Position numbers and translations under genes: made by a program | Source: Patescibacteria group bacterium | GTDB lineage: Bacteria; Patescibacteriota; Patescibacteriia; UBA1558; GWA2-36-10 | Assembly (NCBI GenBank): GCA_041665545.1 | Contig: JBAYIQ010000003.1 | Location: 3,222-67,221, forward strand | Reading direction: 5' to 3' | Length of the DNA: 64,000 bases | Notes under the pieces: model-generated | Database searches by the model: none | What the model saw: only the letters and a program-made list of their open reading frames with translations | Told to the model about the DNA's origin: nothing | Part shown: positions 10,299 through 33,841 of the stretch, in pieces | Position numbering within the stretch: position 1 is the first letter of the stretch | How the letters are laid out: every line of letters begins with the position of its first letter

Positions 10299-10361
10299 TT
10301 TATAGAATTAATTGATTTAAAGCAAGTATTATTAGCTGAAATACTGATTAGAAAAGTGATT

Positions 10362-10761: not shown

Positions 10762-11880
10762 ATGAAAATACTAATTGCTACAGGCATATTTACTCCAGAG
10801 ATAGGCGGTCCAGCTACCTATGTGCCTCTTGTGGCCGAACAATTTTTGCATTTGGGTCATGAAGTGGCAGTGATAAGTTACTCTGATAAAACTAGTTATG
10901 AGCAGGATAAGACCTTGTCTTACCCTGTCACTCGAATAGTACGCAGTAATAAAATTAGTAATTATTGGCGTTATTTTAGAGCACTTTTTAAGTTGGCACC
11001 AAAATATGACCTGATTTATTGTTTTGATCATTTTAGTGCTGGATTGCCAGCAGCTACTGTTAGCCAAATATTTGGAAAACCTTTATATGTTAGAGTGGGC
11101 GGTGATTTTATCTGGGAAAGATATGTGGAGCACAATTCAGTCACCTTGGAGCAATACTATGAACATGGCTTGTATAAAAAAGATATCAATCGTTTCAAAC
11201 TGATAAATTGGGTGTTCCAAACTAGTCGAGCCATTATATTTACGACCGATTGGCAGAAAAATATTTTTTCCAAGTATTATAATTTGGGAAATAAAAAATT
11301 ATTTGTTATCAATAATCCCATTGATCAAAAATTAGATATTCGGCGTGATGAAAACAACATTTCTAATGACATTATTTTTGCTGGACGTTTTATTAATAAA
11401 AATAATATTTTTAATTTGATCAAAGCTTTTGTGGCTTGGTCGCAGGATAAGTATAAATTAGTCTTGATCGGTGAAGGGCCACTGAAAAATAAGTTGGAGA
11501 ATTTAATTATTGAGAATAATTATCAAAATATTATAATCTTAGATAAATTATCACGAGTGGAATTAGTAAAAAAAATGGCTCAAAGTTGGTTGGTGGTTTT
11601 CCCATCACTTAGTGACATCAGTCCCAACACCATGCTGGATTGTGTGCAAGCCAAGATTCCTTTTGTCAGTACGCAAGAAATGGGTTTTGATTGGTTAAAA
11701 AATAATATAAAATTATTTGATCCCACAAAGTCGGCCGAGATTACGGGCTGTTTGGAATATTTAGCCGATGAGAATAATTATAGTCGTTACACAAAAAATA
11801 TTTCGGAGTTAGTATATTCATATTTTTATAAACAGGCCGCTGAAGATACTATTAAAATTTTTGAAAATAAAAATCAGTAA
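10762..11880 (+). CDS. glycosyltransferase (GT4-like, GT-B fold)
   Basis: 372 aa. N-terminus MKILIATGIFTPEIGGPATYV is typical of GT4 N-terminal domains. C-terminal nucleotide-sugar binding half present. Confidence 0.55.
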   Translation: MKILIATGIFTPEIGGPATYVPLVAEQFLHLGHEVAVISYSDKTSYEQDKTLSYPVTRIVRSNKISNYWRYFRALFKLAPKYDLIYCFDHFSAGLPAATVSQIFGKPLYVRVGGDFIWERYVEHNSVTLEQYYEHGLYKKDINRFKLINWVFQTSRAIIFTTDWQKNIFSKYYNLGNKKLFVINNPIDQKLDIRRDENNISNDIIFAGRFINKNNIFNLIKAFVAWSQDKYKLVLIGEGPLKNKLENLIIENNYQNIIILDKLSRVELVKKMAQSWLVVFPSLSDISPNTMLDCVQAKIPFVSTQEMGFDWLKNNIKLFDPTKSAEITGCLEYLADENNYSRYTKNISELVYSYFYKQAAEDTIKIFENKNQ

Positions 11881-11885
11881 TATTT

Positions 11886-13325
11886 GTGATGAAAAAAATT
11901 ATATTAGCACAAATCAACTATTCTCAAGATCGTTCAGAAAAAATTCTGCCAATGGGAATTTTGTGCGTTGGTAGTACTTTAAAAAAAGCGGGTTATGATG
12001 TTGAGCTTGTCAATATCAATGAAAAGGAAATAGCTAAAACAGCTGATTATATAGTCCAACAAGACCCCCTGTATGTCGGCTTGTCAGTGATGACTGGTAT
12101 TCAGACCCAGCATAGCGCCGAGTTATCTAAAAAGATTAAGGCCAAGAAAAATATTCCAATTGTGTGGGGCGGCATTCATCCCTCGCTTTTGCCAGAGCAA
12201 TGTTTGGGTGAGGATTATATTGATTACATAGTAATTTCTGAAGGAGAAATCAGTATTGTGGAGTTGACGGAAAAAATTATTCACCAGGAAGAGCCAGAGG
12301 ATGTATTGGGTGTTGCTTATAAAATAGCCGGTCAAGTCAAAATAAATCCTAGCCGACCTTTTATTACCGATCTAGATGAATACCGAATAGATTTTTCTTT
12401 GATTGATATAGAAAAATTTATTTTTCCCCTAGATAAATATAAGCGGGTAATTGCTTATAAGGCCTCACGTGGCTGTCCTTTTAATTGCGCTTTTTGTTAT
12501 AACAATTTATTTAATAAAAATCGTTGGCGTGTCTGGTCAATTGATACTGTCGTGGAAGATATACAATTTTTAAAAGACAAATATCAGATCGATGCGGTCA
12601 AGTTTTATGACGATAATTTTTTTGTCAGTAAGAGTCGAGCTTTAGAGATTTTAGAAAAAATAAACTTACCCTCACATTTAGAGATTAGGATTGATTCTAT
12701 TAACGAAGAAACTGCCATTAAGCTCAAGGAATACAAAGTTTTTGATATGCTCATAGGAGTAGAATCAGGTAGCGATAGGTTGTTGCAAATGATTGATAAA
12801 AAGTTTACAGTTGAAAAAGTTATGGAGTCTGTGAAGTTATTAGCTAAATATGATTTGCCGGCCTCATACTCGGTAATAGTTGGTTTACCGACCGAAACTA
12901 GCGAAGAGTTTGAGTCTACCATTAATTTGCTTTACAAAATTTATAAAGTTCACTCTAAGGCCGTTTTTACCTTAGGTGCGTATTTGCCTTACCCAGGATC
13001 GCGGATGTATGATTTTGCCATTGCTAATGGTTTCAAGCCACCAGTTAAGACCGAAGGGTGGGGTGCCATTGATCGCTTTCGTAAGAACTTTGACTCGCCT
13101 TGGGTTAATGTCCAAAAAGTTTGGCGAATTAGAGAGTATTTTAAGTTTTTAAACTGGAAATTAGGACCATTGATCAAGTGGTTTGAGTGGCGAATCAAGC
13201 ATCGTTTTTTTAATTTTCCAATCGATATTTATTTAACTGAATATTTTGCTGGTCTAGCGATTGAGCAAAAAGGTTGGTTGGGAAAAAGTTTGCGCCAAGT
13301 TTATAATCTAGCCAAAAGAGTTTAA
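11886..13325 (+). CDS. B12-binding domain radical SAM protein
   Basis: 479 aa. N-terminal cobalamin-binding Rossmann-like domain (GILCVGSTLKKAGYDVELVNI...). Radical SAM cluster motif CPFNCAFC (CxxxCxxC) in ASRGCPFNCAFCYNN. Confidence 0.65.
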   Translation: MMKKIILAQINYSQDRSEKILPMGILCVGSTLKKAGYDVELVNINEKEIAKTADYIVQQDPLYVGLSVMTGIQTQHSAELSKKIKAKKNIPIVWGGIHPSLLPEQCLGEDYIDYIVISEGEISIVELTEKIIHQEEPEDVLGVAYKIAGQVKINPSRPFITDLDEYRIDFSLIDIEKFIFPLDKYKRVIAYKASRGCPFNCAFCYNNLFNKNRWRVWSIDTVVEDIQFLKDKYQIDAVKFYDDNFFVSKSRALEILEKINLPSHLEIRIDSINEETAIKLKEYKVFDMLIGVESGSDRLLQMIDKKFTVEKVMESVKLLAKYDLPASYSVIVGLPTETSEEFESTINLLYKIYKVHSKAVFTLGAYLPYPGSRMYDFAIANGFKPPVKTEGWGAIDRFRKNFDSPWVNVQKVWRIREYFKFLNWKLGPLIKWFEWRIKHRFFNFPIDIYLTEYFAGLAIEQKGWLGKSLRQVYNLAKRV

Positions 13326-13345: not shown

Positions 13346-14443
13346 ATGAAAATATTAGGTATCAGCTTAGACCCCAGTATTTTGGACAAAGAATCAATAC
13401 CAGCCCAAAGGATTATTAAATTTGGACAAAATTTGGACAAATATTATTTATTAGTGCCAACTGATAAAGATCAAAAAAGTCAGCTAGCTGCTAATATATT
13501 TGTCGAATCATTGGGTTCTCATAACAAATTTTTCTTATTTTTCAAAATATACAAAAGAATAAGTGAAATAATAAAAAATGAAAAATTTGATCTACTGACT
13601 ACTCAGGATGCCTATTTTTTATCATTGATACTTATTTTTTTAAGTAGGAAACATGGAATAAAATTTGAAGTGCAGATTCATGGTTTTGAAAAATATCACG
13701 GTTTAAGAAAATTATTAGCTAATTATTCTTTGAGACAAGCGGATATCATCAGAACAGTTAGTATCAAAACCAAAGAATATTTAGTGGATAATTTTTCCAT
13801 ACCAGCCAAAAAGATTTATGTGTCTCCAGTGTTTGTAGATCGGCAAAAAATAGAAAATAGCAAAAATGAATTTAGTCTCCGAGATCTATATCAAAATGAT
13901 TTTATTTTTTTGACCGTCGGTAGATTGGTGCCAGTAAAAAATATTGTTCTGCAGATTAGGGCCATCAAGAAATTGAATTTAGATAAAGTGAAATTAGTTA
14001 TTGTTGGCGAGGGGCCAGACAAAGCCAATCTGCAAGCATTGGTTGCTCGCGAAAATCTAAATAAATCTATTATTTTTGTTGATGGCTATATAAAAAATTT
14101 AGCTGATTATTATAAAAGTGCTGATTGCCTATTGATAACCTCTAATATGGAGGGGTATTGTATGGTAGTGGCCGAAGCAGTATTGGCCGATCTACCGGTG
14201 ATTATGACCGATGTTGGCTGTGCCAATGATTTAGTGGAAAATAATATAAATGGTTTTGTTATTCCAATAAATAATTTAGATGTTTTAGTAGCTAAAATGA
14301 AAAAAGTAGTTGAAGATCAGAAATTATTAACAGAATTTAAAACAAGGCACACAGCCTATAAGGAAAAGATTTTGAGTCAGCAGGCTTTGTCTGATATTAT
14401 TATTGATAATTGGCAAAAAGTAATATACGGGCATGAAAAATAA
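13346..14443 (+). CDS. glycosyltransferase family 4
   Basis: 365 aa. C-terminal GT4 motif EGYCMVVAEAVLADLPVIMTDVGCANDLV. Confidence 0.6.
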   Translation: MKILGISLDPSILDKESIPAQRIIKFGQNLDKYYLLVPTDKDQKSQLAANIFVESLGSHNKFFLFFKIYKRISEIIKNEKFDLLTTQDAYFLSLILIFLSRKHGIKFEVQIHGFEKYHGLRKLLANYSLRQADIIRTVSIKTKEYLVDNFSIPAKKIYVSPVFVDRQKIENSKNEFSLRDLYQNDFIFLTVGRLVPVKNIVLQIRAIKKLNLDKVKLVIVGEGPDKANLQALVARENLNKSIIFVDGYIKNLADYYKSADCLLITSNMEGYCMVVAEAVLADLPVIMTDVGCANDLVENNINGFVIPINNLDVLVAKMKKVVEDQKLLTEFKTRHTAYKEKILSQQALSDIIIDNWQKVIYGHEK

Positions 14444-15470
14444 ATTGTTGATTATCACACAAAAGGTTGATAAAAATGACCCAGTGCTTGGCTTTTTTCA
14501 TGGCTGGCTTTTAGAGTTTGCAAAAAAATATGAAAAAATTACGGTAATTTGTTTAGTTAAGGCAGAATATAATTTACCAAGTAATATAAAAGTGTTGTCG
14601 TTGGGCAAGGAAAATAGAATTTCTCGTTTAAATTACGTTATTAATTTATATAAGTATATTTGGCAAGAGCGCGCTAATTATGATCAGGTGTTTGTGCACA
14701 TGAATCCGGAATATTTAGTTTTAGCTGGTTGTTTTTGGCGTTGCTGGGGCAAGCGCATAGGGTTCTGGTATAATCATGCCAAGGGTGGTATTAAGGCTAA
14801 ATTAGCCATTAAATTGGCCCACAAGGTATTTTATACTTCTTCTTACGCTTTTGCAGCTCGATATCAAAAATCACAGGTCATGCCAGTGGGTATTGCGACT
14901 GATATTTTTAAAATTAATAAATTGAAACAAGTATCTGAACCTTTCAGGTTGTTGAGCTTGGGCCGCATTTCACCAGTTAAAGATTTAGAAACACTGGTGG
15001 CAGCAGCTAAAATTTTGGCTAAAGAAAATTTTGATTTTTTGTTAGATATTTATGGTACGGCACCAGTTCAGGACGAGGATTATTATAAAAAAATAAGAGA
15101 GCAGGCAAAGACTTTGGAGGTAGATAATAAAATAATTTTTCATTCGTCTGTAGTTTATCAGCAAACGCCAGACATTTATAATAGTCATGATCTTTTTATT
15201 AATTTAACTCCCAGCGGTAGTTTTGATAAAACTATTTTAGAAGCCATGGCTTGTGGTACTTTAGTTTTGATTTGTAATAAGTCTTTACACGACGATTTGC
15301 CTGATAATTTTTTATTTAAAGAGCACGAGGCCATTGACTTGGCTAGGAAAATAAAGGCCATATCTTTAATTGATAAACAGAAATATCAAGAGAAATTTAG
15401 GCAGTATGTTTTAGAAAAACACAGTGTGGATATTTTAATTAGTCGTTTACAGCAAGTATTGGGTGAATAA
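14433..15470 (+). CDS. glycosyltransferase family 4
   Basis: 345 aa. GT4-type C-terminal motif DKTILEAMACGTLVLICN. Start overlaps the previous gene by 11 nt (translationally coupled). Confidence 0.55.
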   Translation: MKNKLLIITQKVDKNDPVLGFFHGWLLEFAKKYEKITVICLVKAEYNLPSNIKVLSLGKENRISRLNYVINLYKYIWQERANYDQVFVHMNPEYLVLAGCFWRCWGKRIGFWYNHAKGGIKAKLAIKLAHKVFYTSSYAFAARYQKSQVMPVGIATDIFKINKLKQVSEPFRLLSLGRISPVKDLETLVAAAKILAKENFDFLLDIYGTAPVQDEDYYKKIREQAKTLEVDNKIIFHSSVVYQQTPDIYNSHDLFINLTPSGSFDKTILEAMACGTLVLICNKSLHDDLPDNFLFKEHEAIDLARKIKAISLIDKQKYQEKFRQYVLEKHSVDILISRLQQVLGE

Positions 15471-15488
15471 TAAATAGAGCAACTTAAA

Positions 15489-16613
15489 ATGGATAAAAAA
15501 ATTAAAATTTTATTTGCTATTGATTATTTTGCTGTTGGTGGAGCTCCACTAGTGGTGTTAAATCAAATTAATGGTCTAAACAAAGGTTTATTTGATCCTT
15601 ATATTTTGGTTCTTTATAAGACAGAGAAACCAACATTTTTTGCTGAATTGAATTTTGGACCGGATAAGATTTTCCAGATGAATTTAAAAAATCGTCGCCT
15701 TTTTGATTATAAAACTTGGCGTATGATTTTTAAGATTTTAAAGCGAGAAAAATTTGATGTGGTTTATACTCACTTATTCTTGACCAATTTAATTGTCAGA
15801 TCACTGGCAATTTTAGTCAGAGTTCCAGTCATTATTTCTTTTGAGCATAGCTCTTACTCAGGTAAGCATTTGTGGCAAATTTTTATTGACAAAATCCTTT
15901 CTTTTTTTACCAATCGTATTATTGTCTCTACTAAATCTGTGGCTGAATTTACTGCTAGGCAAGAGAAAATTTCTATTAAAAAATTTGTGGTAATAGCTAA
16001 TCCAGTTATTTTGCCAAAAAAAAATGAGTTTGCTATTTCTGAATTAAGAAAAAAGTTGAATTTGCCATTAGGTTCTTTTGTGGTCATGACACTAGGAAGG
16101 TTTTCCGAAGAGAAGGGTTTGGAATACTTTTTGCAAGCAGCTAAAATAATTTCTCCACTCATAAAAAATGTTTATTTTTTGCTGGTAGGTTATGGTGGAC
16201 TTCAACAAAAGTTAAGGCAAAAGATATTGGAGTTAGAGCTAGAAGATAAATGTAGTCTAGTAATTGATCCTCAACACGCTAAAGAATATTTGTATATTAG
16301 CGATTTATTTGTTCTACCCTCTTTAAGGGAGGGGCAGTCAATAGTCACCTATGAAGCAATGACGGCAGGATTGCCCGTAATTGCTTCGCGTCTGGATAGC
16401 CTTACTGATATTATTGATGATGGTAGGAGCGGAGTTTTAGTAGAGCCAAAAGATAGTGATGCTATAGCTGAAAAAATAATTTATCTTTACCAAAATCCTG
16501 CTATCAGACAGAAATATAGTGAAGCTGGTAAAGAAAAAACTAAAGAATATAATCTTGAAAGAAATATAAAAGAATTTGAAATTTTAATTAAAAATTTAAT
16601 TCAAAAGCAATGA
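15489..16613 (+). CDS. glycosyltransferase family 4
   Basis: 374 aa. EGQSIVTYEAMTAGLPVIASRLDSLTDIIDDGRSGVLVEP (E-x7-E GT4 signature). Confidence 0.65.
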   Translation: MDKKIKILFAIDYFAVGGAPLVVLNQINGLNKGLFDPYILVLYKTEKPTFFAELNFGPDKIFQMNLKNRRLFDYKTWRMIFKILKREKFDVVYTHLFLTNLIVRSLAILVRVPVIISFEHSSYSGKHLWQIFIDKILSFFTNRIIVSTKSVAEFTARQEKISIKKFVVIANPVILPKKNEFAISELRKKLNLPLGSFVVMTLGRFSEEKGLEYFLQAAKIISPLIKNVYFLLVGYGGLQQKLRQKILELELEDKCSLVIDPQHAKEYLYISDLFVLPSLREGQSIVTYEAMTAGLPVIASRLDSLTDIIDDGRSGVLVEPKDSDAIAEKIIYLYQNPAIRQKYSEAGKEKTKEYNLERNIKEFEILIKNLIQKQ

Positions 16614-23797: not shown

Positions 23798-24910
23798 ATG
23801 AGGTATTGCAAAAAATGCATTCAGCCAGACACTCGTCCCAATGTTAAGTTTGATAGTAAGGGTATATGTTTAGCTTGTCGTTTTGCTGAGAAACAAAATA
23901 AAATTGATTGGGCTGCTCGGCGACGTGAATTAGATAAGATAGTTGAGTTTGGTAAAAAATATAATGTTTCGGGTTATGATTGTATTATTGGTGTCAGTGG
24001 TGGCAAGGACAGCACGCGACAAGCACTTTTTGTGAGGGATGAGCTTAAAATGAAACCATTGTTAGTTTCTTGTTCATATCCTCCAGAACAATTGACTGAG
24101 ATAGGGGCACATAATATTTCTAATTTAATTTCTTTGGGTTTCGATTGTATTAATGTTAGTCCAGATCCAGTCGTCTGGAAAATTTTAATGCGTGAAGGTT
24201 TTCTGCGTTTTGGTAATTGGTGTAAATCAACAGAGTTAGCCCTTTATGCTAGTGCTCCTAAAATTGCCATTGCTTATCATATTCCAATTATATTTCTTGG
24301 TGAGAATCCAGCTATTGCTTTTGGCGACCTGAGCGTCGGTTCAACGACCGGAGATGCCAATAAAATGAAATATTGTCATACTTTAAAAGGCGGGACAGAA
24401 GTTTTGGTGACTAATGAAATATCAGAAAAAGATCTTTTTTGGTATTACTATCCTTCGGATGAGGAAATGGAGTGGATAAAGATGCGCATTGTTTATTTGG
24501 GTTATTATGTGCATGATTTTACTAGATTTAAGAATGCGGAATTTGCCATGAAGCGAGGCTTACGTATACGTAAAGATTCACCCCAAGATACTGGGGATGT
24601 TTATGGATTTGAGGCACTAGATGATGATTTTGTTATTATTAATCAGATGTTTAAATATTTAAAATTTGGTTTTGGCAAATCCAATGATCAATTAAGCGAA
24701 GCTATTAGGTTAGGTTTAACAACCCGTAAAAAAGCAATCAGTTTAGCTAAAAAGTACGATGGAAAATGTGCTCCTCGTTTTATAAAAAAGTTTTGTAGCT
24801 ATATTGGTATTAGTGAAAAAAAGTTTTGGGAGATTGCGGAAAAATTTCGCAATAATGACATCTGGCAGAATATCGGAGGGGAATGGCATATAAAAACCGT
24901 ACTAGAATAA
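23798..24910 (+). CDS. N-acetyl sugar amidotransferase (PseA/WbuX-like PP-loop enzyme)
   Basis: N-terminal Cys pairs (CKKC...CLAC) and PP-loop GVSGGKDS. Sits directly upstream of HisH/HisF-like genes, as in WbuXYZ/PseA loci. Confidence 0.6.
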   Translation: MRYCKKCIQPDTRPNVKFDSKGICLACRFAEKQNKIDWAARRRELDKIVEFGKKYNVSGYDCIIGVSGGKDSTRQALFVRDELKMKPLLVSCSYPPEQLTEIGAHNISNLISLGFDCINVSPDPVVWKILMREGFLRFGNWCKSTELALYASAPKIAIAYHIPIIFLGENPAIAFGDLSVGSTTGDANKMKYCHTLKGGTEVLVTNEISEKDLFWYYYPSDEEMEWIKMRIVYLGYYVHDFTRFKNAEFAMKRGLRIRKDSPQDTGDVYGFEALDDDFVIINQMFKYLKFGFGKSNDQLSEAIRLGLTTRKKAISLAKKYDGKCAPRFIKKFCSYIGISEKKFWEIAEKFRNNDIWQNIGGEWHIKTVLE

Positions 24911-24919
24911 ATATAAATT

Positions 24920-25558
24920 ATGGGGACAAAAATTTTAATTATTGATTACAAAGTAGGTAATCATCAATCAATAGTTAATGCTCTGAATTTTTTAGGGTAT
25001 GATTTTATTGTTTCTAGCCGTAAATCAGATATTATCAAAGCGCAATCTTATATTTTACCAGGAGTGGGTGCTTTTGGAGAGGCGATGAAAAATTTTAATA
25101 AGTTAGATATTTTAGATTGCTTACAGGAGCAAGTGTTGATAAAGAAAAAGCCTATTTTGGGCATTTGTCTGGGTATGCAGATTTTGGCCAAAGATTCAGA
25201 AGAGAGTGGTTTTTGTCAGGGACTTGGCTGGATTGATGGTCATGTGGTTGCTCTTAATAAAGCAAAAGATCTAAGGATACCTCATGTGGGCTGGGATAAT
25301 ATTAAATTAATAAAAAAAGATCCACTTTTTTTACGGACTGACAATAAAGAATTGAATTATTATTTTGATCACAGTTATCATTTTGTTTGTGCTGATAAAT
25401 TTATTTCCGCCAGATGTTATTATGGGGAAGATTTTGCGGTAGCAGTGCAAAAGAATAATATTTTTGGTGTTCAATTTCATCCGGAGAAGAGTCAGCGTAA
25501 TGGTTTAAAATTATTGCGTTGTTTTTTGGATATATCATTAAAATATCATAGCGTTTAA
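24920..25558 (+). CDS. hisH: glutamine amidotransferase, HisH-like (WbuY-like)
   Basis: 212 aa. Class I GATase catalytic motif GICLGMQIL and FHPEKS His/Glu. Confidence 0.7.
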   Translation: MGTKILIIDYKVGNHQSIVNALNFLGYDFIVSSRKSDIIKAQSYILPGVGAFGEAMKNFNKLDILDCLQEQVLIKKKPILGICLGMQILAKDSEESGFCQGLGWIDGHVVALNKAKDLRIPHVGWDNIKLIKKDPLFLRTDNKELNYYFDHSYHFVCADKFISARCYYGEDFAVAVQKNNIFGVQFHPEKSQRNGLKLLRCFLDISLKYHSV

Positions 25559-25562
25559 AATA

Positions 25563-26429
25563 ATGTTAAAAAAAAGATTAATTGCAGTTTTAGTAATAAA
25601 AAATGGTCTAGTCGTGCAGAGCATTGGTTTTAGAAAATACTTGCCAATTGGAAAACCCGATATTGCTGTTGATTTTTTAAACTCCTGGGGTATTGATGAA
25701 ATTGTTGTTTTGGATATTGATGCTAGTACACAAAAAAGGGGTCCAGATTTTGCCATGATAGAGAAACTTTCTAGAAAAAATTTTACACCATTGTCGATTG
25801 GTGGAGGCATCTCCAGCGTAGCAGAAATGAAAAAAGTGATTCATTTTGGTGCAGAAAAAATTGTTATTAATAAAGCAGCTTTACAAAATCCAAATTTAAT
25901 TTCCCAGGCAGTTGATATTTTGGGTCGCCAATCTGTTATTGTTTCGGTTGATGTCAAAAAATTTGGTAATAAATATTTTGTTTTTTCTGATTCAGGGAGC
26001 AGAAAAACTTTACTTGAGGTGACGGAATGGGTTAAAAAAATAGAAGAATTGGGGGCTGGGGAAATATTTTTAAATTCAATAGATAGAGATGGAACAAAAA
26101 TGGGATACGACCTGGCTTTGATAAAATTAGTGTCACGTTCAGTTACTATTCCAGTTATTGCTTGCGGTGGAGCTGGTCAGCCTAAGCATTTTATTCAAGC
26201 CTTTGAAAATGGAGTTGTAGCGGTAGCTGCTGGTAATTTTTTCCATTTTACAGAGCATTCCCCAGTTGTTCTAAAGGCTTTTATGAAGAATATAGTTAGT
26301 AATGTTCGTATAGAAACTAATTATGATTATGATGGCTTTGGTTTTTTAGCAGACGGTCGAATTGCAAAAAAATCCGAAACATATTTAGATAAGATTAGAT
26401 TTGAATATCAAGCAAAAGAAATTATATGA
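25563..26429 (+). CDS. hisF: imidazole glycerol phosphate synthase cyclase subunit HisF-like (WbuZ-like)
   Basis: 288 aa. (beta/alpha)8 HisF-like motifs VVLDIDAS...LSIGGGISS...ACGGAGQPKHF. Confidence 0.6.
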   Translation: MLKKRLIAVLVIKNGLVVQSIGFRKYLPIGKPDIAVDFLNSWGIDEIVVLDIDASTQKRGPDFAMIEKLSRKNFTPLSIGGGISSVAEMKKVIHFGAEKIVINKAALQNPNLISQAVDILGRQSVIVSVDVKKFGNKYFVFSDSGSRKTLLEVTEWVKKIEELGAGEIFLNSIDRDGTKMGYDLALIKLVSRSVTIPVIACGGAGQPKHFIQAFENGVVAVAAGNFFHFTEHSPVVLKAFMKNIVSNVRIETNYDYDGFGFLADGRIAKKSETYLDKIRFEYQAKEII

Positions 26430-27685
26430 TGTATTGCCAGAGATGTCTTTATCCAGCTAATCATCCCTTAAATATTGTCTTTGATGACGAAGGTGTTTGC
26501 AGTGGCTGTCGCGTACATGAAGAAAAAGATCAACTTGATTGGGACGCCAAAGCTAAAGATTTAGAAAAGATATTAGTTCAATATAGAAGTAAGACAGGTA
26601 AAAGTTATGATTGTATAATTCCGGTTAGTGGGGCTAGGGATTCTTATTTTATTGTTTATACCATAAAAAATGTTTATAAAATGAATCCTTTATTGGTAAC
26701 TTATAATAAACAATATAATACCAGTACTGGTATTCGAAATTTGGCTTATCTTAAAACTTTGTTAGGTTGTGATGTACTCATGCTCACAGTTTCACCAGCT
26801 AAAGTAAAAAAGATTACCAGAGTAACAATTAAAAAATTAGGTAGTATTTATTGGCATTGTCTGGCTGGTCAAACAGTTTTTCCTGTTCAGACAGCTGTGC
26901 GCCTAAAAATACCCTTAATTATTTGGGGAGCTCATCAGGGCATGGAACAAGTGGGTATGTTTTCTCACTTGGATAAAGTTGAAATGACTCGTAAATATCG
27001 TAAGGAGCATGATTTAATGGGCCTTGAGGCAGAGGATTTAATTGGCGAAGAAGGAATCACGTCTGATGATATTTTACCCTTTATTTATCCACATGATAAA
27101 GAAATAGAGAGAGTTGGTGTTAGGGGAATTTATTTAAATAATTACATACGTTGGGATTCAAAACAACAGCATGAAAAAATGATTAAGCTTTATAATTACG
27201 AAACTACAAAACAGCAAAGGACTTTTGATACATATAATGATGTTGATTGTTTTAATTATTCAGATTTACACGATTATATTAAATTTTTAAAATGGGGTTA
27301 TGGTAAGGTGACTGACCATGCTTCTAGGGAAATCAGATTAAAAAGATTAACGCGGGAGGAGGGAATTGATTTGGTTAGACAATATCAAAATAAAAAATAT
27401 AACCCTCGTCATTTTAAAATGTTTCTTGCTTGGGTGGGAATGAAAGAGTTTGATTTTTGGCAGCATATTAATAAAAAGCGCGATTTAAATATTTGGGGTA
27501 AAGATAAAAATGGCAAATGGATTTTAATTGATTCGATTTTAAATCACGTTAAAGATGGGGGTGTTAAAAAGGTGAAGCTTGGTAAGATTGATAATTGCTA
27601 TTTTAAAGTTACACCTTCACGCAGTCATTCCAGCAGGGAAAATGATTATATTTTAATTGGACGTGGCTATGTTGATAAAAAATAA
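26426..27685 (+). CDS. N-acetyl sugar amidotransferase (second PseA/WbuX-like paralog)
   Basis: 419 aa. N-terminal CQRC...CSGC zinc-ribbon-like region and PP-loop IPVSGARDS. Paralog of 23798-24910. Confidence 0.55.
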   Translation: MMYCQRCLYPANHPLNIVFDDEGVCSGCRVHEEKDQLDWDAKAKDLEKILVQYRSKTGKSYDCIIPVSGARDSYFIVYTIKNVYKMNPLLVTYNKQYNTSTGIRNLAYLKTLLGCDVLMLTVSPAKVKKITRVTIKKLGSIYWHCLAGQTVFPVQTAVRLKIPLIIWGAHQGMEQVGMFSHLDKVEMTRKYRKEHDLMGLEAEDLIGEEGITSDDILPFIYPHDKEIERVGVRGIYLNNYIRWDSKQQHEKMIKLYNYETTKQQRTFDTYNDVDCFNYSDLHDYIKFLKWGYGKVTDHASREIRLKRLTREEGIDLVRQYQNKKYNPRHFKMFLAWVGMKEFDFWQHINKKRDLNIWGKDKNGKWILIDSILNHVKDGGVKKVKLGKIDNCYFKVTPSRSHSSRENDYILIGRGYVDKK

Positions 27686-27699
27686 ATAAGTATAAATTT

Positions 27700-28245
27700 A
27701 TGCAAGAAAAAAAAGGATACTTAATAAAGGGGCAAAACTTAGCTTTACGTAAACTATTATTAACTGATGTTAATAAGGTTTATTTATCTTGGCTGAATGA
27801 TAAAAGCATCCAAAAATATACGCGACGTCGAGGTCAGAAAATGACTATGCTTGGTTTAAAAAAGTTTGTAAAGAGTATTGAAAAATCAAAAGATTGGCAT
27901 TTTGCTATAATTATTAAAGATAGCAAAAAGCACATTGGTAATGTTTTTTTAAACTTAGTTGATGATCTAAATAAAAGTGCTGATTTATCGATTATGATAG
28001 GTGATAAAAATGAATGGGGCAAAGGATATGCTGGTGAAGTGATTAAACTGGCTACGCAGTTTGCTTTTAAGGAGTTAAAGCTGCATCGATTATCGGCTGG
28101 TTCTCCTAATCCAGCTTTTAACACTGTAGTGAAAAAATTAGGATGGACGCTTGAGGGGAAAAGGAGGGACGCTTTCTTTTTTGAAAGAAAATTTATTGAT
28201 ATATCGTGTTGGTCAATTTTAAAAAATGAGTGGAAAAATAAATAA
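27700..28245 (+). CDS. GNAT family N-acetyltransferase (PseH/RimL-like)
   Basis: 181 aa. GNAT fold motifs FAIIIKDSKKHIGNVFLNLVD...GKGYAGEVIKLATQFAFKELKLHRL. Confidence 0.6.
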   Translation: MQEKKGYLIKGQNLALRKLLLTDVNKVYLSWLNDKSIQKYTRRRGQKMTMLGLKKFVKSIEKSKDWHFAIIIKDSKKHIGNVFLNLVDDLNKSADLSIMIGDKNEWGKGYAGEVIKLATQFAFKELKLHRLSAGSPNPAFNTVVKKLGWTLEGKRRDAFFFERKFIDISCWSILKNEWKNK

Positions 28246-29272
28246 TATTAAAAATATGTTCAAAAAAAATTCAACATTTATTATTGCGGAAGCGGGTATA
28301 AATCACAACGGTGATTTTGCAACAGCTAAAAAATTGATTATTGAAGCAAAAAAATGCGGAGCTGATGCCATAAAGTTTCAGTCTTTTAAGGCCGATGAGC
28401 TTATTATCGAAAAAGCCCAGAAGGCTAAGCATGTTAAGGGTGAAAAAAGTTTTTTTGATATGTTAAAAAGTTGGGAATTAACCGCCAATGATTATGTAAA
28501 ATTAGCGGCTATTGCTAAAAAAGAGGGGATTATCTTTTTTGCTTCCGTTTTTGGAAGACAGTCTTTGGCTTTAATGAAAAAGGTTGGCGCACCACTTTTT
28601 AAAATTGCTTCTTGTGATTTAAATAATCATTTTTTACTTAAAGAAGTGGCTAAAACTAAAAAACCAGTGATTATTTCAACTGGCATGGGGAGTGCTGAAG
28701 AAATAAAGCAGGCCATAAAAATATTGGCCAAAGGCACACGAGAATTGGGTATTTTACACTGTATTTCGCTTTATCCACCACAAGCAGAAGAATTAAACCT
28801 CCAAAGAATTTCAATTTTAAAAAAGATGTTTCCCAAGCATGTTATTGGCTATTCTGACCATACTCTAGATATTTTTACTTCATCCGCTACTATTCTTTTG
28901 GGAGCTAAAATAATTGAAAAGCATTTTACCTTGGATAAGCATATGCCCGGCCCAGATCAGCCAAGTTCGGCCGATCCAAAAGAATTTAAAAAAATGGTAG
29001 AACAAATTAGATTTTTAGAAAAGGCCATTCAGGAAAAAGAAATAAAAATTAATCCTGGAGCTCGAGAAAAAGAAATGAAGAAGGCCTTTCGACGTAGTTT
29101 GGTAGCCAATGAATTTATTGCCAAAGGAACAGTGATAAGCGAAAAAATGTTAGCAGTAAAGCGACCAGGCACAGGTATTCCTTCTTCAGAGATGGGTAAA
29201 TTGTTGGGCAAAAAAGCTAAAAATAATTTAGAAAAAAATACCATAATTAGTTATTCAGACATAACTCGATGA
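28226..29272 (+). CDS. neuB: N-acetylneuraminate synthase family (NeuB/PseI/LegI-like nonulosonic acid synthase)
   Basis: 348 aa. N-terminus FIIAEAGINHNGDFATAKKLIIEAKKCGADAIKFQSF is the hallmark NeuB TIM-barrel start. C-terminal SAF/antifreeze-like domain present. Confidence 0.75.
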   Translation: MSGKINNIKNMFKKNSTFIIAEAGINHNGDFATAKKLIIEAKKCGADAIKFQSFKADELIIEKAQKAKHVKGEKSFFDMLKSWELTANDYVKLAAIAKKEGIIFFASVFGRQSLALMKKVGAPLFKIASCDLNNHFLLKEVAKTKKPVIISTGMGSAEEIKQAIKILAKGTRELGILHCISLYPPQAEELNLQRISILKKMFPKHVIGYSDHTLDIFTSSATILLGAKIIEKHFTLDKHMPGPDQPSSADPKEFKKMVEQIRFLEKAIQEKEIKINPGAREKEMKKAFRRSLVANEFIAKGTVISEKMLAVKRPGTGIPSSEMGKLLGKKAKNNLEKNTIISYSDITR

Positions 29273-30246
29273 TTAATATTATAGGAAAAATTAATAAAGA
29301 TAATTATCGCGAATTCACTAATTCAGATTTTTTCGGCTATGAGGTATTTTTAGCATCGGAAGAGGATTTTCATTATTTGCCAGACATGATATCAAAGTTG
29401 AATATTGTTTCTGTTCATCAGCCAAGTCGTAATTTTAATTTATGTAATGAGGGGCAGCAAGGAGAAGGCTCTTTCCGGTTATTAGAGCGGCTACTTTCAA
29501 TACTTGATAATAATAACTTCAAAGGGGTTCTCGTTGTACATGGAGCTTATTTTGATGAGCTTAGTTCGCAGCGAGATAAACATTTGGAGATTATGGCTAA
29601 GAGAATAGACATCTTGTCAGAGAATTTTGCTAATATTAAAATTTCTCTGGAGAATGACGTGTGGTTTTTAAACCAGATAAAAAAGCGTCGGGCACTTTTA
29701 GCTGAACCCAAAGACTTTTTTGATTTAAGAGAAAAAATGACTAGCCATCTTTACATTACTCTTGATTTTGAGCATATGTGGATTTCTTCTATTTTTTCAT
29801 CATTTTTTAAAGAAAATGAATCTTTTTGTGTGCAGGTCAATGACACAAGTGATTTGAATAAACCGGAAGTTATTTTAGCTAAAAAAACTTGGTTTACTTT
29901 TATTGAAAATAATAAAAATAATCTAGAGAAATTAGTGTCCAAAAATATCAAGGAATATCATGAATTGCAATCATCAATTGTTAATTTTCACCTTAATGGC
30001 TCAAATATGTTTAACTACTGGTTTGATGAAAAAATATTTATCCCTTATCTTGGTGAACATTTGTGTATTCAAGAAGAGGATGATAATATAAATTATAATC
30101 TTATTAGGGAAAATTTAGATAAATTAACCAAGCAGAAAGATATTAATATAGTTTTGGAAATTTGGCCACGGGAAAAATCTAGGTATGTAGTAGAATTGAA
30201 AAAATCTGGTAACTTGGCTCGAGAAATATTTAAAAACATTAAATAA
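29269..30246 (+). CDS. hypothetical protein, possibly xylose-isomerase-like TIM-barrel (sugar phosphate isomerase/epimerase)
   Basis: 325 aa. Scattered His/Glu/Asp motifs (VSVHQPS, VVHGAYFDE, LENDVW, TLDFEHMW, NFHLNG) are reminiscent of AP-endonuclease-2/xylose isomerase-like barrels. Weak. Confidence 0.25.
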   Translation: MINIIGKINKDNYREFTNSDFFGYEVFLASEEDFHYLPDMISKLNIVSVHQPSRNFNLCNEGQQGEGSFRLLERLLSILDNNNFKGVLVVHGAYFDELSSQRDKHLEIMAKRIDILSENFANIKISLENDVWFLNQIKKRRALLAEPKDFFDLREKMTSHLYITLDFEHMWISSIFSSFFKENESFCVQVNDTSDLNKPEVILAKKTWFTFIENNKNNLEKLVSKNIKEYHELQSSIVNFHLNGSNMFNYWFDEKIFIPYLGEHLCIQEEDDNINYNLIRENLDKLTKQKDINIVLEIWPREKSRYVVELKKSGNLAREIFKNIK

Positions 30247-30255
30247 ACTAAAAAA

Positions 30256-30939
30256 ATGAAAAATATTTGTATTATCCCAGCTCGGGGTGGATCCAAGAGA
30301 ATTCCCAAAAAAAATATAGTCGATTTTTATGGTAAGCCGATGTTGGCTTATACTATTGAGGCGGCTATTAAATCTGGTTTATTTGGTGAGAATATTTTTG
30401 TTAGTTCAGATTCAGAGGAGATCTTAGCAGTCGCCAATAACTATCCGGGCGTGCAGAGCATTTTGCGCCCAGCAGAAATTTCTGGAGACACAGCAACATT
30501 AGAGGAAGCAACCTTGCATTTGTTAAATAATGCTAGTGGTAATTTTGATTATTTGTGTATGCTTATGCCCAATTGTCCTTTACGCAACGAAGAGGATATA
30601 AAAATTTCTTTTGCTGAAATAACTAAAGCTGGTGCTACCTGTTCAATGAGTGTAGTTGATTATTATTGGCTCTACCCATTTTGGGCTTTACAAGAAAAAG
30701 AAACTGGCTTGGAATTATTTTTTGGTAAAGAATATCTGATTGATTCAAAAAAATTGCCCAAGGTTTATTGTCCTTCGGGGGCAGTTCGTTGGGTAAAGGT
30801 AGATAATTTCAAGGAGGAAAAAAAGTTTTATGGTAAGGGCTTGATGAAATATGTTATTCCTTTTGAAAGGAGTGTGGATATTGATAACTTTGAGGATTTA
30901 GAATTAGCTAAAAAGATTTATAAAATCGTAAATGCCTAG
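30256..30939 (+). CDS. neuA: acylneuraminate cytidylyltransferase family (CMP-nonulosonic acid synthetase, NeuA/PseF-like)
   Basis: 227 aa. N-terminus MKNICIIPARGGSKRIPKKNI is the canonical CMP-NeuAc/CMP-Kdo synthetase P-loop-like motif. Confidence 0.75.
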   Translation: MKNICIIPARGGSKRIPKKNIVDFYGKPMLAYTIEAAIKSGLFGENIFVSSDSEEILAVANNYPGVQSILRPAEISGDTATLEEATLHLLNNASGNFDYLCMLMPNCPLRNEEDIKISFAEITKAGATCSMSVVDYYWLYPFWALQEKETGLELFFGKEYLIDSKKLPKVYCPSGAVRWVKVDNFKEEKKFYGKGLMKYVIPFERSVDIDNFEDLELAKKIYKIVNA

Positions 30940-33838: not shown

Positions 33839-33841
33839 TTT

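What the first reader, a model, noticed from the sequence alone, without database searches (positions are those of the whole stretch)
11886..13325. Two paralogous B12-binding radical SAM enzymes inside the glycan cluster (second copy 38615-40084, next to an FkbM methyltransferase)
Both proteins combine an N-terminal cobalamin-binding domain with a CxxxCxxC radical SAM core (CPFNCAFC; CVGACTFC). Class B radical SAM enzymes typically C-methylate or otherwise modify unactivated carbons. Next to an FkbM O-methyltransferase (40101-40958) and many GTs, they point to a C-methylated or otherwise radical-tailored sugar in the exported glycan. This is unusual chemistry for a reduced genome that probably cannot make cobalamin.
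Basis: partly seen in the sequence, partly recalled or inferred. Interest (0 to 1): 0.55.

Follow-up and report, generated by a model that had tools for sequence, protein, structure and literature searches.

The report
Two B12-type radical SAM glycan enzymes
Two distantly related radical SAM enzymes with cobalamin-type domains sit inside the surface-sugar gene cluster of a small-genome Patescibacteria (CPR) bacterium, where they most likely tailor the sugars by radical chemistry (probably C-methylation), but they belong to uncharacterised enzyme families and their exact reaction is unknown.

Summary
ORFs 11886-13325 (rSAM-A) and 38615-40084 (rSAM-B) each combine a Pfam B12-binding domain with a CX3CX2C radical SAM core, both above the curated cutoffs. 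They are only 25% identical, so they are separate families and not recent paralogs. No curated NCBIfam model (BchE, MgmA, HpnJ, PhpK, AprD4, MiaB and others) reaches its cutoff.

Context ties both to glycan assembly. rSAM-A belongs to a large, highly conserved family (60-83% identity), almost all from Patescibacteria, that sits between GT4 glycosyltransferases. Elsewhere it is fused to a class I methyltransferase and, in one locus, to a GT4. rSAM-B belongs to a rare family that always follows a ~510-aa protein distantly resembling Pse/Leg transferases, inside nonulosonic-acid clusters. Elsewhere it is fused to a polysaccharide deacetylase.

Cobalamin use is likely but unproven. The N-terminal domains align with OxsB and TsrM, not with the cobalamin-free AprD4, and the lower-axial position is hydrophobic. 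The overall fold does not discriminate.

The window has no cobalamin gene. Related CPR loci carry a candidate uptake pair (DUF4430 with a CbrT-like DUF6580).

C-methylation is the favoured reaction but is not shown. B12-type radical SAM enzymes are common in CPR, not unusual. Verdict: new members of a known kind, of moderate interest.

The parts
11886..13325 (+). rSAM-A: B12-binding-domain radical SAM enzyme, 479 aa (likely true start ATG 11889, 478 aa)
   Evidence: ORF. Pfam domains above cutoff. Exact match to public protein P0001 from a Patescibacteria MAG. AF2 model pLDDT 91.
11946..12266 (+). rSAM-A N-terminal cobalamin-binding-type Rossmann domain (residues 21-127). Met69 (nt 12090-12092) occupies the column of the lower-axial residue of OxsB (N186).
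   Evidence: Pfam PF02310, 67.2 bits. The family profile aligns with the OxsB and TsrM Cbl domains but not with the AprD4 N-terminal domain. M69 is invariant in 54 sequences.
12462..12932 (+). rSAM-A radical SAM core (residues 193-349) with the cluster motif CPFNCAFC at nt 12474-12497
   Evidence: Pfam PF04055, 86.4 bits. Motif located. C197, C201 and C204 invariant.
13038..13322 (+). rSAM-A C-terminal helical tail, basic and aromatic-rich (18 K+R and 20 W/F/Y in 95 residues), with no transmembrane segment. Possibly a membrane-interface or substrate-binding region (inference).
   Evidence: Composition and hydropathy. Many invariant W, R and F residues. Helices in the model.
10762..11880 (+). 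GT4 glycosyltransferase immediately upstream of rSAM-A (5-nt gap)
   Evidence: Pfam Glycos_transf_1 and Glyco_transf_4. A GT4 lies upstream of rSAM-A in most related loci. One locus (L012) has GT4 and rSAM-A in a single ORF.
13346..16613 (+). Three glycosyltransferase genes directly downstream of rSAM-A (13346-14443, 14433-15470, 15489-16613)
   Evidence: Pfam. The order rSAM-A, GT4, GT recurs in most of the 38 family-A loci.
38615..40084 (+). rSAM-B: B12-binding-domain radical SAM enzyme, 489 aa
   Evidence: ORF. Pfam domains above cutoff. Exact match to P0121 on the same 169,477-bp contig. AF2 model pLDDT 95.7.
38660..38989 (+). rSAM-B N-terminal cobalamin-binding-type domain (residues 16-125). 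Leu68 (nt 38816-38818) occupies the column of TsrM R69 and OxsB N186.
   Evidence: Pfam PF02310, 61.4 bits. The family profile aligns from residue 1-5 with TsrM and OxsB, while the AprD4 N-terminal domain scores -0.8 bits. L68 is conserved in at least 90% of 36 orthologs.
39224..39706 (+). rSAM-B radical SAM core (residues 204-364) with the cluster motif CVGACTFC at nt 39239-39262
   Evidence: Pfam PF04055, 53.9 bits. Motif located. C209, C213 and C216 invariant.
37043..38587 (+). 514-aa protein directly upstream of rSAM-B, the constant partner of family B. Candidate nonulosonic-acid transferase (weak evidence).
   Evidence: NCBIfam BFO_1060 family GT, 41.7 bits against a cutoff of 200; Pfam Capsule_synth, 24.8 bits. 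BFO_1060 is an ortholog of the validated Tannerella Pse/Leg transferases. A ~505-515-aa homolog lies 0-2 genes upstream of rSAM-B in 8 of 8 loci with upstream sequence.
40101..40958 (+). FkbM-family SAM methyltransferase directly downstream of rSAM-B
   Evidence: Pfam Methyltransf_21, 71 bits; NCBIfam fkbM_fam, 95 bits. FkbM is also in the P0126 locus module. Other loci have TylF, a class I MT or a pyruvyl transferase in this position.
40963..41781 (+). GT2 glycosyltransferase of the rSAM-B module
   Evidence: Pfam Glycos_transf_2, 74.5 bits. A GT2 is adjacent to rSAM-B in the P0126 locus and in L045.
23798..35146 (+). Nonulosonic-acid pathway block upstream of the rSAM-B module: WbuX x2, HisH/WbuZ, GNAT, NeuB-type synthase, CMP-transferase, formyltransferase, PseC-like aminotransferases, PseB-like dehydratase
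   Evidence: Pfam. NCBIfam: WbuX 320 and 330 bits (above cutoff); PseB 332, PseC 322, PseF 169, NeuB 355 and WbuZ 262 bits (all below equivalog cutoffs).

Best explanation
Both proteins are class-B-type radical SAM enzymes: an N-terminal cobalamin-binding Rossmann domain followed by a CX3CX2C [4Fe-4S]/SAM core. They tailor the cell-surface glycan made by this cluster.

Proposed mechanism (inferred from the characterised family, not shown here). The reduced [4Fe-4S] cluster cleaves SAM to a 5'-deoxyadenosyl radical. That radical abstracts a hydrogen from an unactivated sp3 carbon of a sugar or of its N-acyl side chain. The substrate radical then takes a methyl group from methylcobalamin, and a second SAM re-methylates cob(I)alamin. 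The net result is a C-methylated sugar.

rSAM-A works within a conserved, mostly Patescibacteria GT4 glycosyltransferase module. rSAM-B works within a module that attaches and decorates a Pse/Leg-type nonulosonic acid: a ~510-aa transferase-like protein, rSAM-B, the FkbM methyltransferase and a GT2.

Both enzymes probably act at the cytoplasmic face of the membrane on a nucleotide-activated or lipid-linked intermediate. This is inferred from their basic, aromatic C-terminal helices and from the Bac_transf / ABC exporter / Wzy_C context. Cobalamin would have to be scavenged from the environment.
For: Shown:
- Both Pfam domains are above cutoff.
- All cluster cysteines are invariant.
- High-confidence models (pLDDT 91 and 96) have TsrM, OxsB, MgmA, TokK and CysS as top structural neighbours (E 1e-14 to 1e-22).
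- The family profiles align through the N-terminal domain with the cobalamin domains of OxsB, TsrM, TokK and CysS. AprD4 aligns only over the radical SAM core.
- The motif is the canonical CX3CX2C. AprD4 shows CX3CX3C in the same alignments.
- The column of the lower-axial residue (TsrM R69, OxsB N186) is Met69 in A (invariant) and Leu68 in B (at least 90% conserved). The review reports hydrophobic residues there for radical methylases and polar ones for non-methylases.

Glycan link:
- Tight operon spacing of 5-27 nt.
- rSAM-A is flanked by GT4 genes in most of 38 loci. It is 60-83% conserved while the neighbouring GTs are only 25-50% identical.
- Family A fusions: to a class I MT (P0064, P0090, P0117) and to a GT4 (L012).
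- rSAM-B lies 0-2 genes after the ~510-aa BFO_1060-like protein in 8 of 8 loci, next to NeuB, PseB/PseC-like genes and an ABC exporter.
- Family B is fused to a NodB deacetylase (P0128, P0136, P0140; long ORFs in L047 and L048 are of matching length) or is adjacent to one (L046).

Prior: most characterised B12-radical SAM enzymes are Csp3 methyltransferases, including the sugar methylase GenK.

Cobalamin supply: a DUF4430 lipoprotein (the transcobalamin C-terminal domain family) and a DUF6580 protein (profile hit to the B12 transporter structure 6FNP, chain A, E 7e-4) lie 2-3 genes from rSAM-B orthologs in L005 and L044. DUF6580 also lies near rSAM-A orthologs in L003, L019 and L038.
Against: - No characterised family is matched. 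The best NCBIfam scores are 143 and 127 bits against a BchE cutoff of 481, so the reaction cannot be transferred by homology.
- AprD4, which does not bind cobalamin, is the best single-sequence PDB hit for rSAM-A. It has the highest TM-score for both models (0.67-0.74).
- The lower-axial argument rests on a handful of structures and on a sequence alignment, not on an inspected pocket.
- The window has no cobalamin uptake, salvage or synthesis gene and no DUF6580 or DUF4430 homolog.
- The substrate is unknown, and no C-methyl sugar has been reported for these organisms in the papers searched.
- The window lacks the tandem second rSAM and the class I MT that accompany rSAM-A in many genomes, so the conserved pathway may be incomplete here.
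Confidence: 0.45

Rival explanations
1. The enzymes are cobalamin-dependent but do not methylate. After H-atom abstraction they rearrange the sugar, by ring contraction or carbocycle formation as proposed for HpnJ (glucosamine to cyclitol ether) or shown for OxsB, or they catalyse another redox-neutral or oxidative change. This is most attractive for rSAM-B.
For: The recurring combination of a glycosyltransferase, a deacetylase and a B12-rSAM mirrors HpnI (GlcNAc transfer), HpnK (deacetylation) and HpnJ (putative ring contraction). A GT2 is adjacent in the window, the P0126 locus and L045. A NodB deacetylase is fused or adjacent in at least four family-B loci. OxsB is among the best sequence and structure hits. 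Separate SAM methyltransferases (FkbM, TylF, class I MT) already sit in the modules, so methyl transfer need not come from the rSAM.
Against: The HpnJ model scores only 81 bits (B) and 115 bits (A) against a cutoff of 578. HpnJ's own reaction is genetic inference only. The window has no deacetylase. The hydrophobic lower-axial residue resembles the methylases more than OxsB or TsrM. Non-methylating members are a minority of the characterised enzymes.
Confidence: 0.2
2. The N-terminal domain is a degenerate Rossmann domain that binds no cobalamin, as in AprD4 and ArsL. The enzymes would then do 5'-dA-radical chemistry alone, for example 1,2-diol dehydration leading to a deoxy sugar, epimerisation or oxidation. 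This would remove the cobalamin-supply problem for a reduced genome.
For: AprD4 acts on an aminoglycoside sugar. It is the top single-sequence PDB hit for rSAM-A (E 6e-14), a top profile hit for both families, and has the best TM-scores. The review warns that such cobalamin-free enzymes sit inside B12-rSAM similarity networks. The window encodes no cobalamin-related function.
Against: The similarity to AprD4 is confined to the radical SAM core, and its N-terminal domain does not align (score -0.8 bits). The Pfam B12-binding scores are about twice the cutoff. The motif is CX3CX2C, not AprD4's CX3CX3C. The AprD4 NCBIfam model scores 66 and 39 bits against a cutoff of 500. Candidate cobalamin capture and uptake genes co-localise with orthologs in other CPR genomes.
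Confidence: 0.15
3. The substrate is not the glycan itself but something made alongside it: the polyprenyl or other lipid carrier, a lipid anchor, or a protein or peptide acceptor such as a pilin or S-layer protein.
For: Several of the best NCBIfam hits are lipid or peptide modifiers: the ladderane-lipid rSAM, HpnR, MgmA and RiPP C-methyltransferases. rSAM-A is far more conserved (60-83%) than its GT neighbours (25-50%), as expected for an enzyme acting on a conserved non-glycan or early precursor. The C-terminal tails are amphipathic. A type IV pilus cluster lies next to the glycan cluster.
Against: The fusion partners are carbohydrate enzymes (NodB deacetylase, GT4). The constant neighbours are glycosyltransferases and sugar-decorating enzymes. 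No precursor peptide or lipid-synthesis genes recur next to either family in the loci examined.
Confidence: 0.1

Closest known systems
Class I B12-dependent radical SAM enzymes with solved structures (MgmA/QCMT 9CCB, TokK, CysS, TsrM, OxsB)
   Same: N-terminal Rossmann cobalamin-type domain followed by a CX3CX2C radical SAM barrel. They are the top Foldseek hits (E 1e-14 to 1e-22) and profile hits that extend through the N-terminal domain. The lower-axial position is hydrophobic, as in the radical methylases.
   Different: Only 13-20% identity. The substrates differ: a protein glutamine, carbapenem or cystobactamid intermediates, tryptophan, and a deoxyadenosine phosphate. The window proteins are shorter, with their own basic, aromatic C-terminal helices. 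Cobalamin binding was not tested.
Sugar-modifying B12-radical SAM C-methyltransferases (GenK, GenD1/GntE, MoeK5, Fom3)
   Same: The same enzyme class acting on carbohydrate-type substrates inside clusters rich in glycosyltransferases. This is the closest functional analogy for the favoured mechanism.
   Different: Those act on secondary-metabolite intermediates in actinomycetes, not on surface glycans. No sequences were available for a direct comparison and no NCBIfam model for them was matched, so the analogy is by class only.
AprD4 (radical SAM 1,2-diol dehydratase, 6FD2)
   Same: Similar size and overall fold (TM 0.67-0.74), a sugar substrate, and good sequence similarity across the radical SAM core.
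   Different: AprD4 binds no cobalamin and has a CX3CX3C motif. Its N-terminal domain does not align with either family. The NCBIfam AprD4 model scores 66 and 39 bits against a cutoff of 500.
HpnJ with HpnI and HpnK (hopanoid cyclitol-ether side chain)
   Same: A glycosyltransferase, a sugar deacetylase and a B12-domain radical SAM working in series on a membrane-bound glycoconjugate. Family B shows the same trio as neighbours or fusions.
   Different: The HpnJ model scores 81-115 bits against a cutoff of 578. There are no hopanoid genes. The deacetylase here is of NodB type, and the window itself lacks one.
BchE (anaerobic Mg-protoporphyrin IX monomethyl ester cyclase)
   Same: Best-scoring NCBIfam model for both proteins, and the name JGI gives to many homologs.
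   Different: Scores of 143 and 127 bits against a cutoff of 481. There is no chlorophyll pathway in this context, so the JGI name is an over-annotation.

Membership tests
B12-binding-domain (class B) radical SAM superfamily | Radical SAM core with a CX3CX2C cluster motif | tested here: met
   PF04055 scores 86.4 and 53.9 bits against a cutoff of 29.5. CPFNCAFC and CVGACTFC are present, and the cysteines are invariant.
B12-binding-domain (class B) radical SAM superfamily | N-terminal cobalamin-binding Rossmann domain recognisable by sequence | tested here: met
   PF02310 scores 67.2 and 61.4 bits against a cutoff of 32.1. The family profiles align with the Cbl domains of OxsB, TsrM, TokK and CysS.
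B12-binding-domain (class B) radical SAM superfamily | Class I architecture (Rossmann domain N-terminal to the TIM-barrel-like core) | tested here: met
   The AF2 models (pLDDT 91 and 96) show an alternating strand/helix N-terminal domain followed by the barrel. The top Foldseek hits are TsrM, OxsB, MgmA and TokK.
B12-binding-domain (class B) radical SAM superfamily | Actual binding and use of cobalamin | not testable with these tools
   The fold matches cobalamin-binding enzymes and cobalamin-free AprD4 equally well. Only indirect support is available: the hydrophobic lower-axial residue and the neighbouring DUF4430/DUF6580 genes in other loci.
BchE (TIGR02026) | Score at or above the curated equivalog cutoff (481 bits) | tested here: not met
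   143 bits (A) and 126.8 bits (B).
MgmA / MCR glutamine C-methyltransferase (TIGR04014) | Score at or above the curated cutoff (360 bits) | tested here: not met
   108.4 bits (A) and 108.1 bits (B). The PDB 9CCB profile hit is E 4e-47 for family B but covers only residues 95-387.
HpnJ (TIGR03471) | Score at or above the curated cutoff (577.6 bits), with a hopanoid gene context | tested here: not met
   114.9 bits (A) and 81.3 bits (B). The window has no hopanoid genes.
AprD4 family diol dehydratase (NF033070) | Score at or above the cutoff (500 bits), with a CX3CX3C motif | tested here: not met
   66.4 bits (A) and 39.3 bits (B). The window proteins have CX3CX2C, whereas AprD4 shows C-PYP-C-RFY-C in the alignments.
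MiaB/RimO methylthiotransferases (TIGR00089 and relatives) | Score at or above the cutoff (251 bits), with UPF0004 and TRAM domains | tested here: not met
39.9 bits (A) and 19.4 bits (B). Pfam finds no UPF0004 or TRAM domain.
PhpK / Sden_1168 P-methyltransferases (TIGR04479, NF038361) | Score at or above the cutoffs (600 and 575 bits) | tested here: not met
   A scores 118 and 117 bits; B scores 72 and 50 bits. Pfam annotated no PEP mutase or other phosphonate gene in the window.

The most novel reading that the evidence does not exclude
Patescibacteria, which are not known to make corrinoids, may have made scavenged vitamin B12 a requirement for building their cell surface. On this reading, up to four separate B12-radical SAM families are wired into their glycan clusters. 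They are sometimes accompanied by a dedicated capture and uptake pair: a transcobalamin-like DUF4430 lipoprotein and a CbrT-like DUF6580 membrane protein. rSAM-B would be the first radical SAM enzyme dedicated to tailoring a nonulosonic-acid (Pse/Leg-type) glycan, yielding a C-methylated or skeletally rearranged sugar of a kind not yet described.
Probability: 0.25. Interest if true: 0.65.

Novelty: new member of a known kind. Interest (0 to 1): 0.4.

Why it matters
CPR/Patescibacteria live attached to other cells and depend on their surface structures, yet the chemistry of those surfaces is essentially unknown.

If these enzymes are cobalamin-dependent glycan tailoring enzymes, three things follow:
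- The surface glycan of a large part of the CPR would carry radical-installed modifications such as C-methyl branches or rearranged sugars.
- Surface biogenesis would depend on a vitamin the cell must obtain from a host or the community. That is a concrete, testable metabolic dependency.
- Family B would link radical SAM chemistry to nonulosonic acids, a sugar class important in host interaction.

For enzymology, both families are compact (~480 aa) and model with high confidence. Family A is also strongly conserved. They are good candidates for assigning new functions within a superfamily of more than 220,000 members.

If they turn out to be ordinary C-methylases, the result is a modest extension of known chemistry to a new substrate class.

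Tried and rejected
1. Function assignment by curated HMMs. None of 35 (A) or 28 (B) NCBIfam matches reaches its cutoff, so no name can be transferred. The JGI labels 'BchE' and 'YgiQ' are over-annotations.

3. Fold search to decide on cobalamin use. TsrM, OxsB, MgmA, TokK and AprD4 all match at similar E-values and TM-scores, so it does not discriminate. Model coordinates are not exposed, so the pocket could not be inspected.

4. Search of the window for partner genes seen elsewhere. No DUF6580, DUF4430, class I MT, NodB deacetylase, pyruvyl transferase, TylF, Epimerase_2 or further rSAM was found.

5. DUF6580 and DUF4430 against PDB sequences.
- The single DUF6580 sequence gave an insignificant hit to 6FNP (E 7.9).
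- A 5-sequence DUF6580 profile raised this to E 7e-4.
- The DUF4430 profile only matched lipoprotein signal peptides. Its link to cobalamin therefore rests on the Pfam family's presence in transcobalamins.

6. Attempt to find a DUF6580 gene on the window's own 169,477-bp contig, using the longest-contig field. None was among the 120 listed of at least 3,909 hits, which is inconclusive.

7. Metagenome scan for family B. Only 5 of 80 loci were orthologs, on short contigs. The 75 distant paralogs were not analysed.

8. Literature. No paper in the held library links radical SAM enzymes to nonulosonic-acid clusters or discusses B12-radical SAM enzymes in CPR.

9. Phosphonate (PhpK/Fom3-like) idea. 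It was dropped because Pfam annotated no PEP mutase or other phosphonate gene in the window; it was not followed further.
Full report
**Observation.** rSAM-A spans 11886-13325 on the + strand (479 aa from GTG; the public protein is 478 aa, so ATG 11889 is the likely start). rSAM-B spans 38615-40084 on the + strand (489 aa). Each has a Pfam B12-binding domain (67.2 and 61.4 bits; cutoff 32.1) followed by a Radical_SAM domain (86.4 and 53.9 bits; cutoff 29.5). The quoted motifs are at residues 197-204 (CPFNCAFC, nt 12474-12497) and 209-216 (CVGACTFC, nt 39239-39262). All six cysteines are invariant in the family alignments. The FkbM methyltransferase at 40101-40958 is confirmed. One correction is needed. 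The two proteins share only 25% identity (E 2e-29), so they are members of one superfamily and not recent paralogs.

**Source and setting.** Both proteins are identical to entries from a 169,477-bp contig of a 'Patescibacteria group bacterium' MAG. The window from about 4 to 43 kb is a single, mostly co-directional glycan block with ~32% GC against 38-43% in the flanks. It contains:
- three Wzy_C proteins (one also with Pfam TPR repeats) and a separate TPR protein (4083);
- many GT4 genes;
- an ABC exporter;
- a nonulosonic-acid pathway: two WbuX, HisH/WbuZ, GNAT, a NeuB-type synthase, a PseF-like cytidylyltransferase, a formyltransferase, and PseC-like and PseB-like enzymes;
- two weakly sialyltransferase-like or BFO_1060-like proteins;
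- a GT2 and a Bac_transf initiating transferase.

Downstream lie chemotaxis-type genes and a type IV pilus cluster. No gene in the window is related to cobalamin synthesis, salvage or transport.

**Classification.** No NCBIfam model reaches its cutoff. The best scores are BchE at 143 and 127 bits (cutoff 481). MgmA, ApyD, PhpK, the ladderane-lipid rSAM, HpnJ and BzaD all score around 80-125 bits. The two proteins therefore belong to uncharacterised subfamilies of a superfamily said to exceed 220,000 members. The 'BchE' and 'YgiQ' labels that JGI gives to homologs are over-annotations.

**Is cobalamin bound?** The nearest solved relatives disagree. MgmA/QCMT (9CCB), TokK, CysS, TsrM and OxsB all bind cobalamin, while AprD4 does not. 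High-confidence AF2 models (pLDDT 91.1 and 95.7) match all of these at E 1e-14 to 1e-22 and TM 0.6-0.74, so the fold alone does not decide.

Three sequence features favour a real cobalamin domain:
- The family profiles align through the N-terminal domain with OxsB, TsrM, TokK and CysS. AprD4 aligns only over the radical SAM core, and its N-terminal domain scores -0.8 bits.
- The cluster motif is the canonical CX3CX2C. AprD4 shows CX3CX3C in the same alignments.
- The column holding the lower-axial residue of TsrM (R69) and OxsB (N186) is Met69 in rSAM-A (invariant in 54 sequences) and Leu68 in rSAM-B (at least 90% of 36 orthologs). A 2026 review reports hydrophobic residues at this position in radical methylases and polar ones in non-methylases.

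This evidence is suggestive only. It rests on few structures and on alignment, and I could not inspect the pocket.

**rSAM-A family.** The 120 best database clusters are all 61-83% identical, and the named ones are nearly all Patescibacteria. In species-representative genomes I recovered 38 loci. Thirty-two are at 60% identity or more; their record titles are mostly CPR lineages. Six are at 39-50% identity; four of these are titled Elusimicrobia, Nitrospirota, Poribacteria and Thermoleophilia, and two only 'bacterium'.

The neighbourhood is strongly conserved:
- A GT4 lies upstream.
- Nineteen loci carry a second B12-rSAM of ~481 aa. It is usually immediately upstream of rSAM-A and is 30% identical to it.
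- rSAM-A is followed by a GT4 and then another GT.
- A third rSAM (~449 aa) and class I methyltransferases often lie further along.

rSAM-A is much more conserved (60-83%) than the adjacent glycosyltransferases (mostly 25-50%). This suggests it acts on a conserved precursor or core structure (inference). Fusions tie it to its neighbours: rSAM-A::class I MT in P0064, P0090 and P0117, a class I MT gene directly after it in four loci, and a single 1,183-aa ORF containing a GT4 and rSAM-A in L012 (one example, to be treated with caution). The window has the GT4 / rSAM-A / GT / GT / GT arrangement but lacks the tandem rSAM and the class I MT.

**rSAM-B family.** This family is rare. About 40 clusters at 90% identity are 40% or more identical to it, and below them identity drops abruptly to 34% or less. 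Only five orthologous loci appeared among 80 from the metagenome scan. In all eight loci with upstream sequence, rSAM-B lies 0-2 genes downstream of a ~505-515-aa protein. In the window that protein is 37043-38587. It weakly matches the BFO_1060 glycosyltransferase family (41.7 bits; cutoff 200) and Pfam Capsule_synth. BFO_1060 is an ortholog of the genetically validated Tannerella Pse/Leg-derivative transferases.

The intervening or following genes are interchangeable decorating enzymes (FkbM, TylF, a class I MT, a polysaccharide pyruvyl transferase) together with a GT2 or a GT4-like gene. The wider loci carry NeuB, PseB/PseC-like genes, a formyltransferase, Epimerase_2 and an ABC exporter. 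Three homolog clusters are fused to a NodB polysaccharide deacetylase (P0128, P0136, P0140; L047 and L048 have ORFs of matching length), and L046 has the deacetylase as the next gene. rSAM-B is thus a component of a module that attaches and decorates a residue of a nonulosonic-acid-containing glycan. Whether it acts on the nonulosonate or on a neighbouring sugar is not known.

**Mechanism.** The best-supported reading is that both are cobalamin-dependent radical SAM enzymes tailoring the glycan, most probably as Csp3 C-methyltransferases. The steps would be:
- SAM cleavage at the [4Fe-4S] cluster;
- H-abstraction by the 5'-deoxyadenosyl radical;
- methyl transfer from methylcobalamin;
- re-methylation of cob(I)alamin by a second SAM.

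These are the general steps for the class, not steps demonstrated here. The basic, aromatic-rich C-terminal helices have no transmembrane segment. Together with the Bac_transf / ABC exporter / Wzy_C context, this suggests action at the cytoplasmic membrane face on nucleotide-activated or lipid-linked intermediates (inference).

Three rivals remain:
- B12-dependent but non-methylating rearrangement. This is prompted by the parallel between the GT / deacetylase / rSAM combination and HpnI/HpnK/HpnJ and by the similarity to OxsB.
- A cobalamin-free AprD4-like dehydratase or other radical enzyme.
- A non-glycan substrate (lipid carrier or protein).

I rate these at 0.45, 0.2, 0.15 and 0.1 respectively.

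**Cobalamin supply.** The data point the other way. B12-domain radical SAM genes are a common feature of CPR glycan clusters, with four mutually distant families (25-30% identity) and up to three or four copies per locus.

A side finding bears on supply. In L005 and L044, two to three genes beyond the rSAM-B ortholog, lies a gene pair. One member is a DUF4430 protein with a lipoprotein-type N-terminus; DUF4430 is the C-terminal domain family of transcobalamin-type B12 binders. The other is a DUF6580 membrane protein. A 5-sequence DUF6580 profile hits chain A of the ECF-CbrT vitamin B12 transporter structure 6FNP (E 7e-4), with another ECF S-component second. That the 182-aa chain A is CbrT itself is my inference from its size. 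DUF6580 also lies near rSAM-A orthologs in L003, L019 and L038. It is abundant in CPR (at least 3,909 hits), and NCBI names it a 'putative transport protein'.

This is a plausible corrinoid capture and uptake module, but it is absent from the window. I could not establish whether the source genome has one.

**Comparison with the known, and novelty.** In how they work, the closest analogues are the sugar-modifying B12-radical SAM methylases of antibiotic pathways (GenK, GenD1, MoeK5, Fom3). The alternatives are HpnJ/OxsB-type rearrangement and AprD4-type dehydration. In membership, the proteins meet the sequence and fold criteria of the class B (class I architecture) B12-radical SAM superfamily. 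They fail every curated subfamily cutoff tested (see the membership table). I found no paper in the held library linking radical SAM enzymes to nonulosonic-acid clusters or discussing these families in CPR. That library is incomplete, so this is absence of evidence only.

**Verdict.** These are new members of a known kind. They are real, well-supported B12-type radical SAM enzymes that are functionally coupled to glycan assembly, with unknown substrates and an unproven cofactor. Interest is moderate (0.4). The most interesting angles are the dependence of CPR surface biogenesis on a scavenged vitamin and the link between rSAM-B and nonulosonic acids.

Noticed in passing
L005:11847-12765 and L044:10964-11937 (also DUF6580 alone at L003:4345-4911, L019:4343-4891, L038:1044-1574): A DUF4430 lipoprotein (the transcobalamin C-terminal domain family) is paired with a DUF6580 membrane protein. 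A DUF6580 profile hits chain A of the ECF-CbrT vitamin B12 transporter structure 6FNP (E 7e-4). The pair lies a few genes from B12-rSAM genes in other CPR glycan clusters and is a candidate corrinoid capture and uptake module. It is absent from the window.
   Followed up: partly
window 4000-43000: The whole glycan block has ~32% GC, against 38-43% in both flanks. This is typical of exchangeable surface-polysaccharide loci. I did not check for mobility signatures.
   Followed up: no
window 10158-10652 (+): A GIY-YIG nuclease-domain ORF (66 bits) sits in the middle of the glycan cluster. It overlaps the 5' end of the minus-strand GT4 gene 9042-10232. It may be a homing-endonuclease-like insertion.
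   Followed up: no
window 16610-17923 (+): A 437-aa ORF with a weak RtcB (RNA ligase) match (35 bits, cutoff 27) lies inside the glycan operon. It is followed by two ORFs with no Pfam family match (17913-18725, 18722-19660) and a CDP-alcohol phosphatidyltransferase-like gene (19629-20456). None of these is conserved in the 38 family-A loci.
   Followed up: partly
window 4795-9050, 43244-45406, 41795-43159 (-), 21997-23787: The cluster has three Wzy_C (O-antigen ligase/polymerase type) proteins (Pfam finds TPR repeats in 4795-7029), a Bac_transf initiating transferase and an ABC exporter. From my own knowledge of PglL/PilO-type systems, this looks like en-bloc lipid-linked glycan transfer, possibly protein or pilin O-glycosylation, given the adjacent type IV pilus cluster.
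   Followed up: no
window 23798-27685: Two WbuX N-acetyl-sugar amidotransferases (320 and 330 bits, above cutoff) flank a HisH/WbuZ pair. This implies acetamidino modification of the diamino sugar or nonulosonate, perhaps at two positions.
   Followed up: partly
window 28226-33838: The nonulosonic-acid genes best match PseB, PseC and PseF, but the synthase scores higher on the NeuB model than on PseI. All are below equivalog cutoffs, and no PseG or Epimerase_2 was recognised. The pathway is divergent and its stereochemistry is uncertain.
   Followed up: partly
window 49037-60378: A type IV pilus cluster: PilB, PilC, PilM and several N-methyl-motif pilins. One is a 1,037-aa pilin-like protein with Laminin_G_3 and DUF2341 domains (52553-55666), and a 466-aa Laminin_G_3 protein follows (55667-57067). 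Upstream are MCP-like and CheA-like genes (45511-48614).
   Followed up: no
window 263-3967 (+): A 1,234-aa ORF with no Pfam family match lies in the higher-GC (43%) left flank.
   Followed up: no
L012:5883-9434 (+): A single 1,183-aa ORF contains a ~300-aa unknown N-terminal region, a GT4 domain and an rSAM-A ortholog. This is an apparent GT4::rSAM fusion. It is one example only, and a sequencing error was not excluded.
   Followed up: partly
L004:17159-18208 (-): A TylCIII-type NDP-hexose C-methyltransferase (Methyltransf_13/14 domains) lies in the same cluster as an rSAM-B::deacetylase fusion. At least some of these CPR clusters therefore also encode the conventional, non-radical route to C-methyl sugars.
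   Followed up: no
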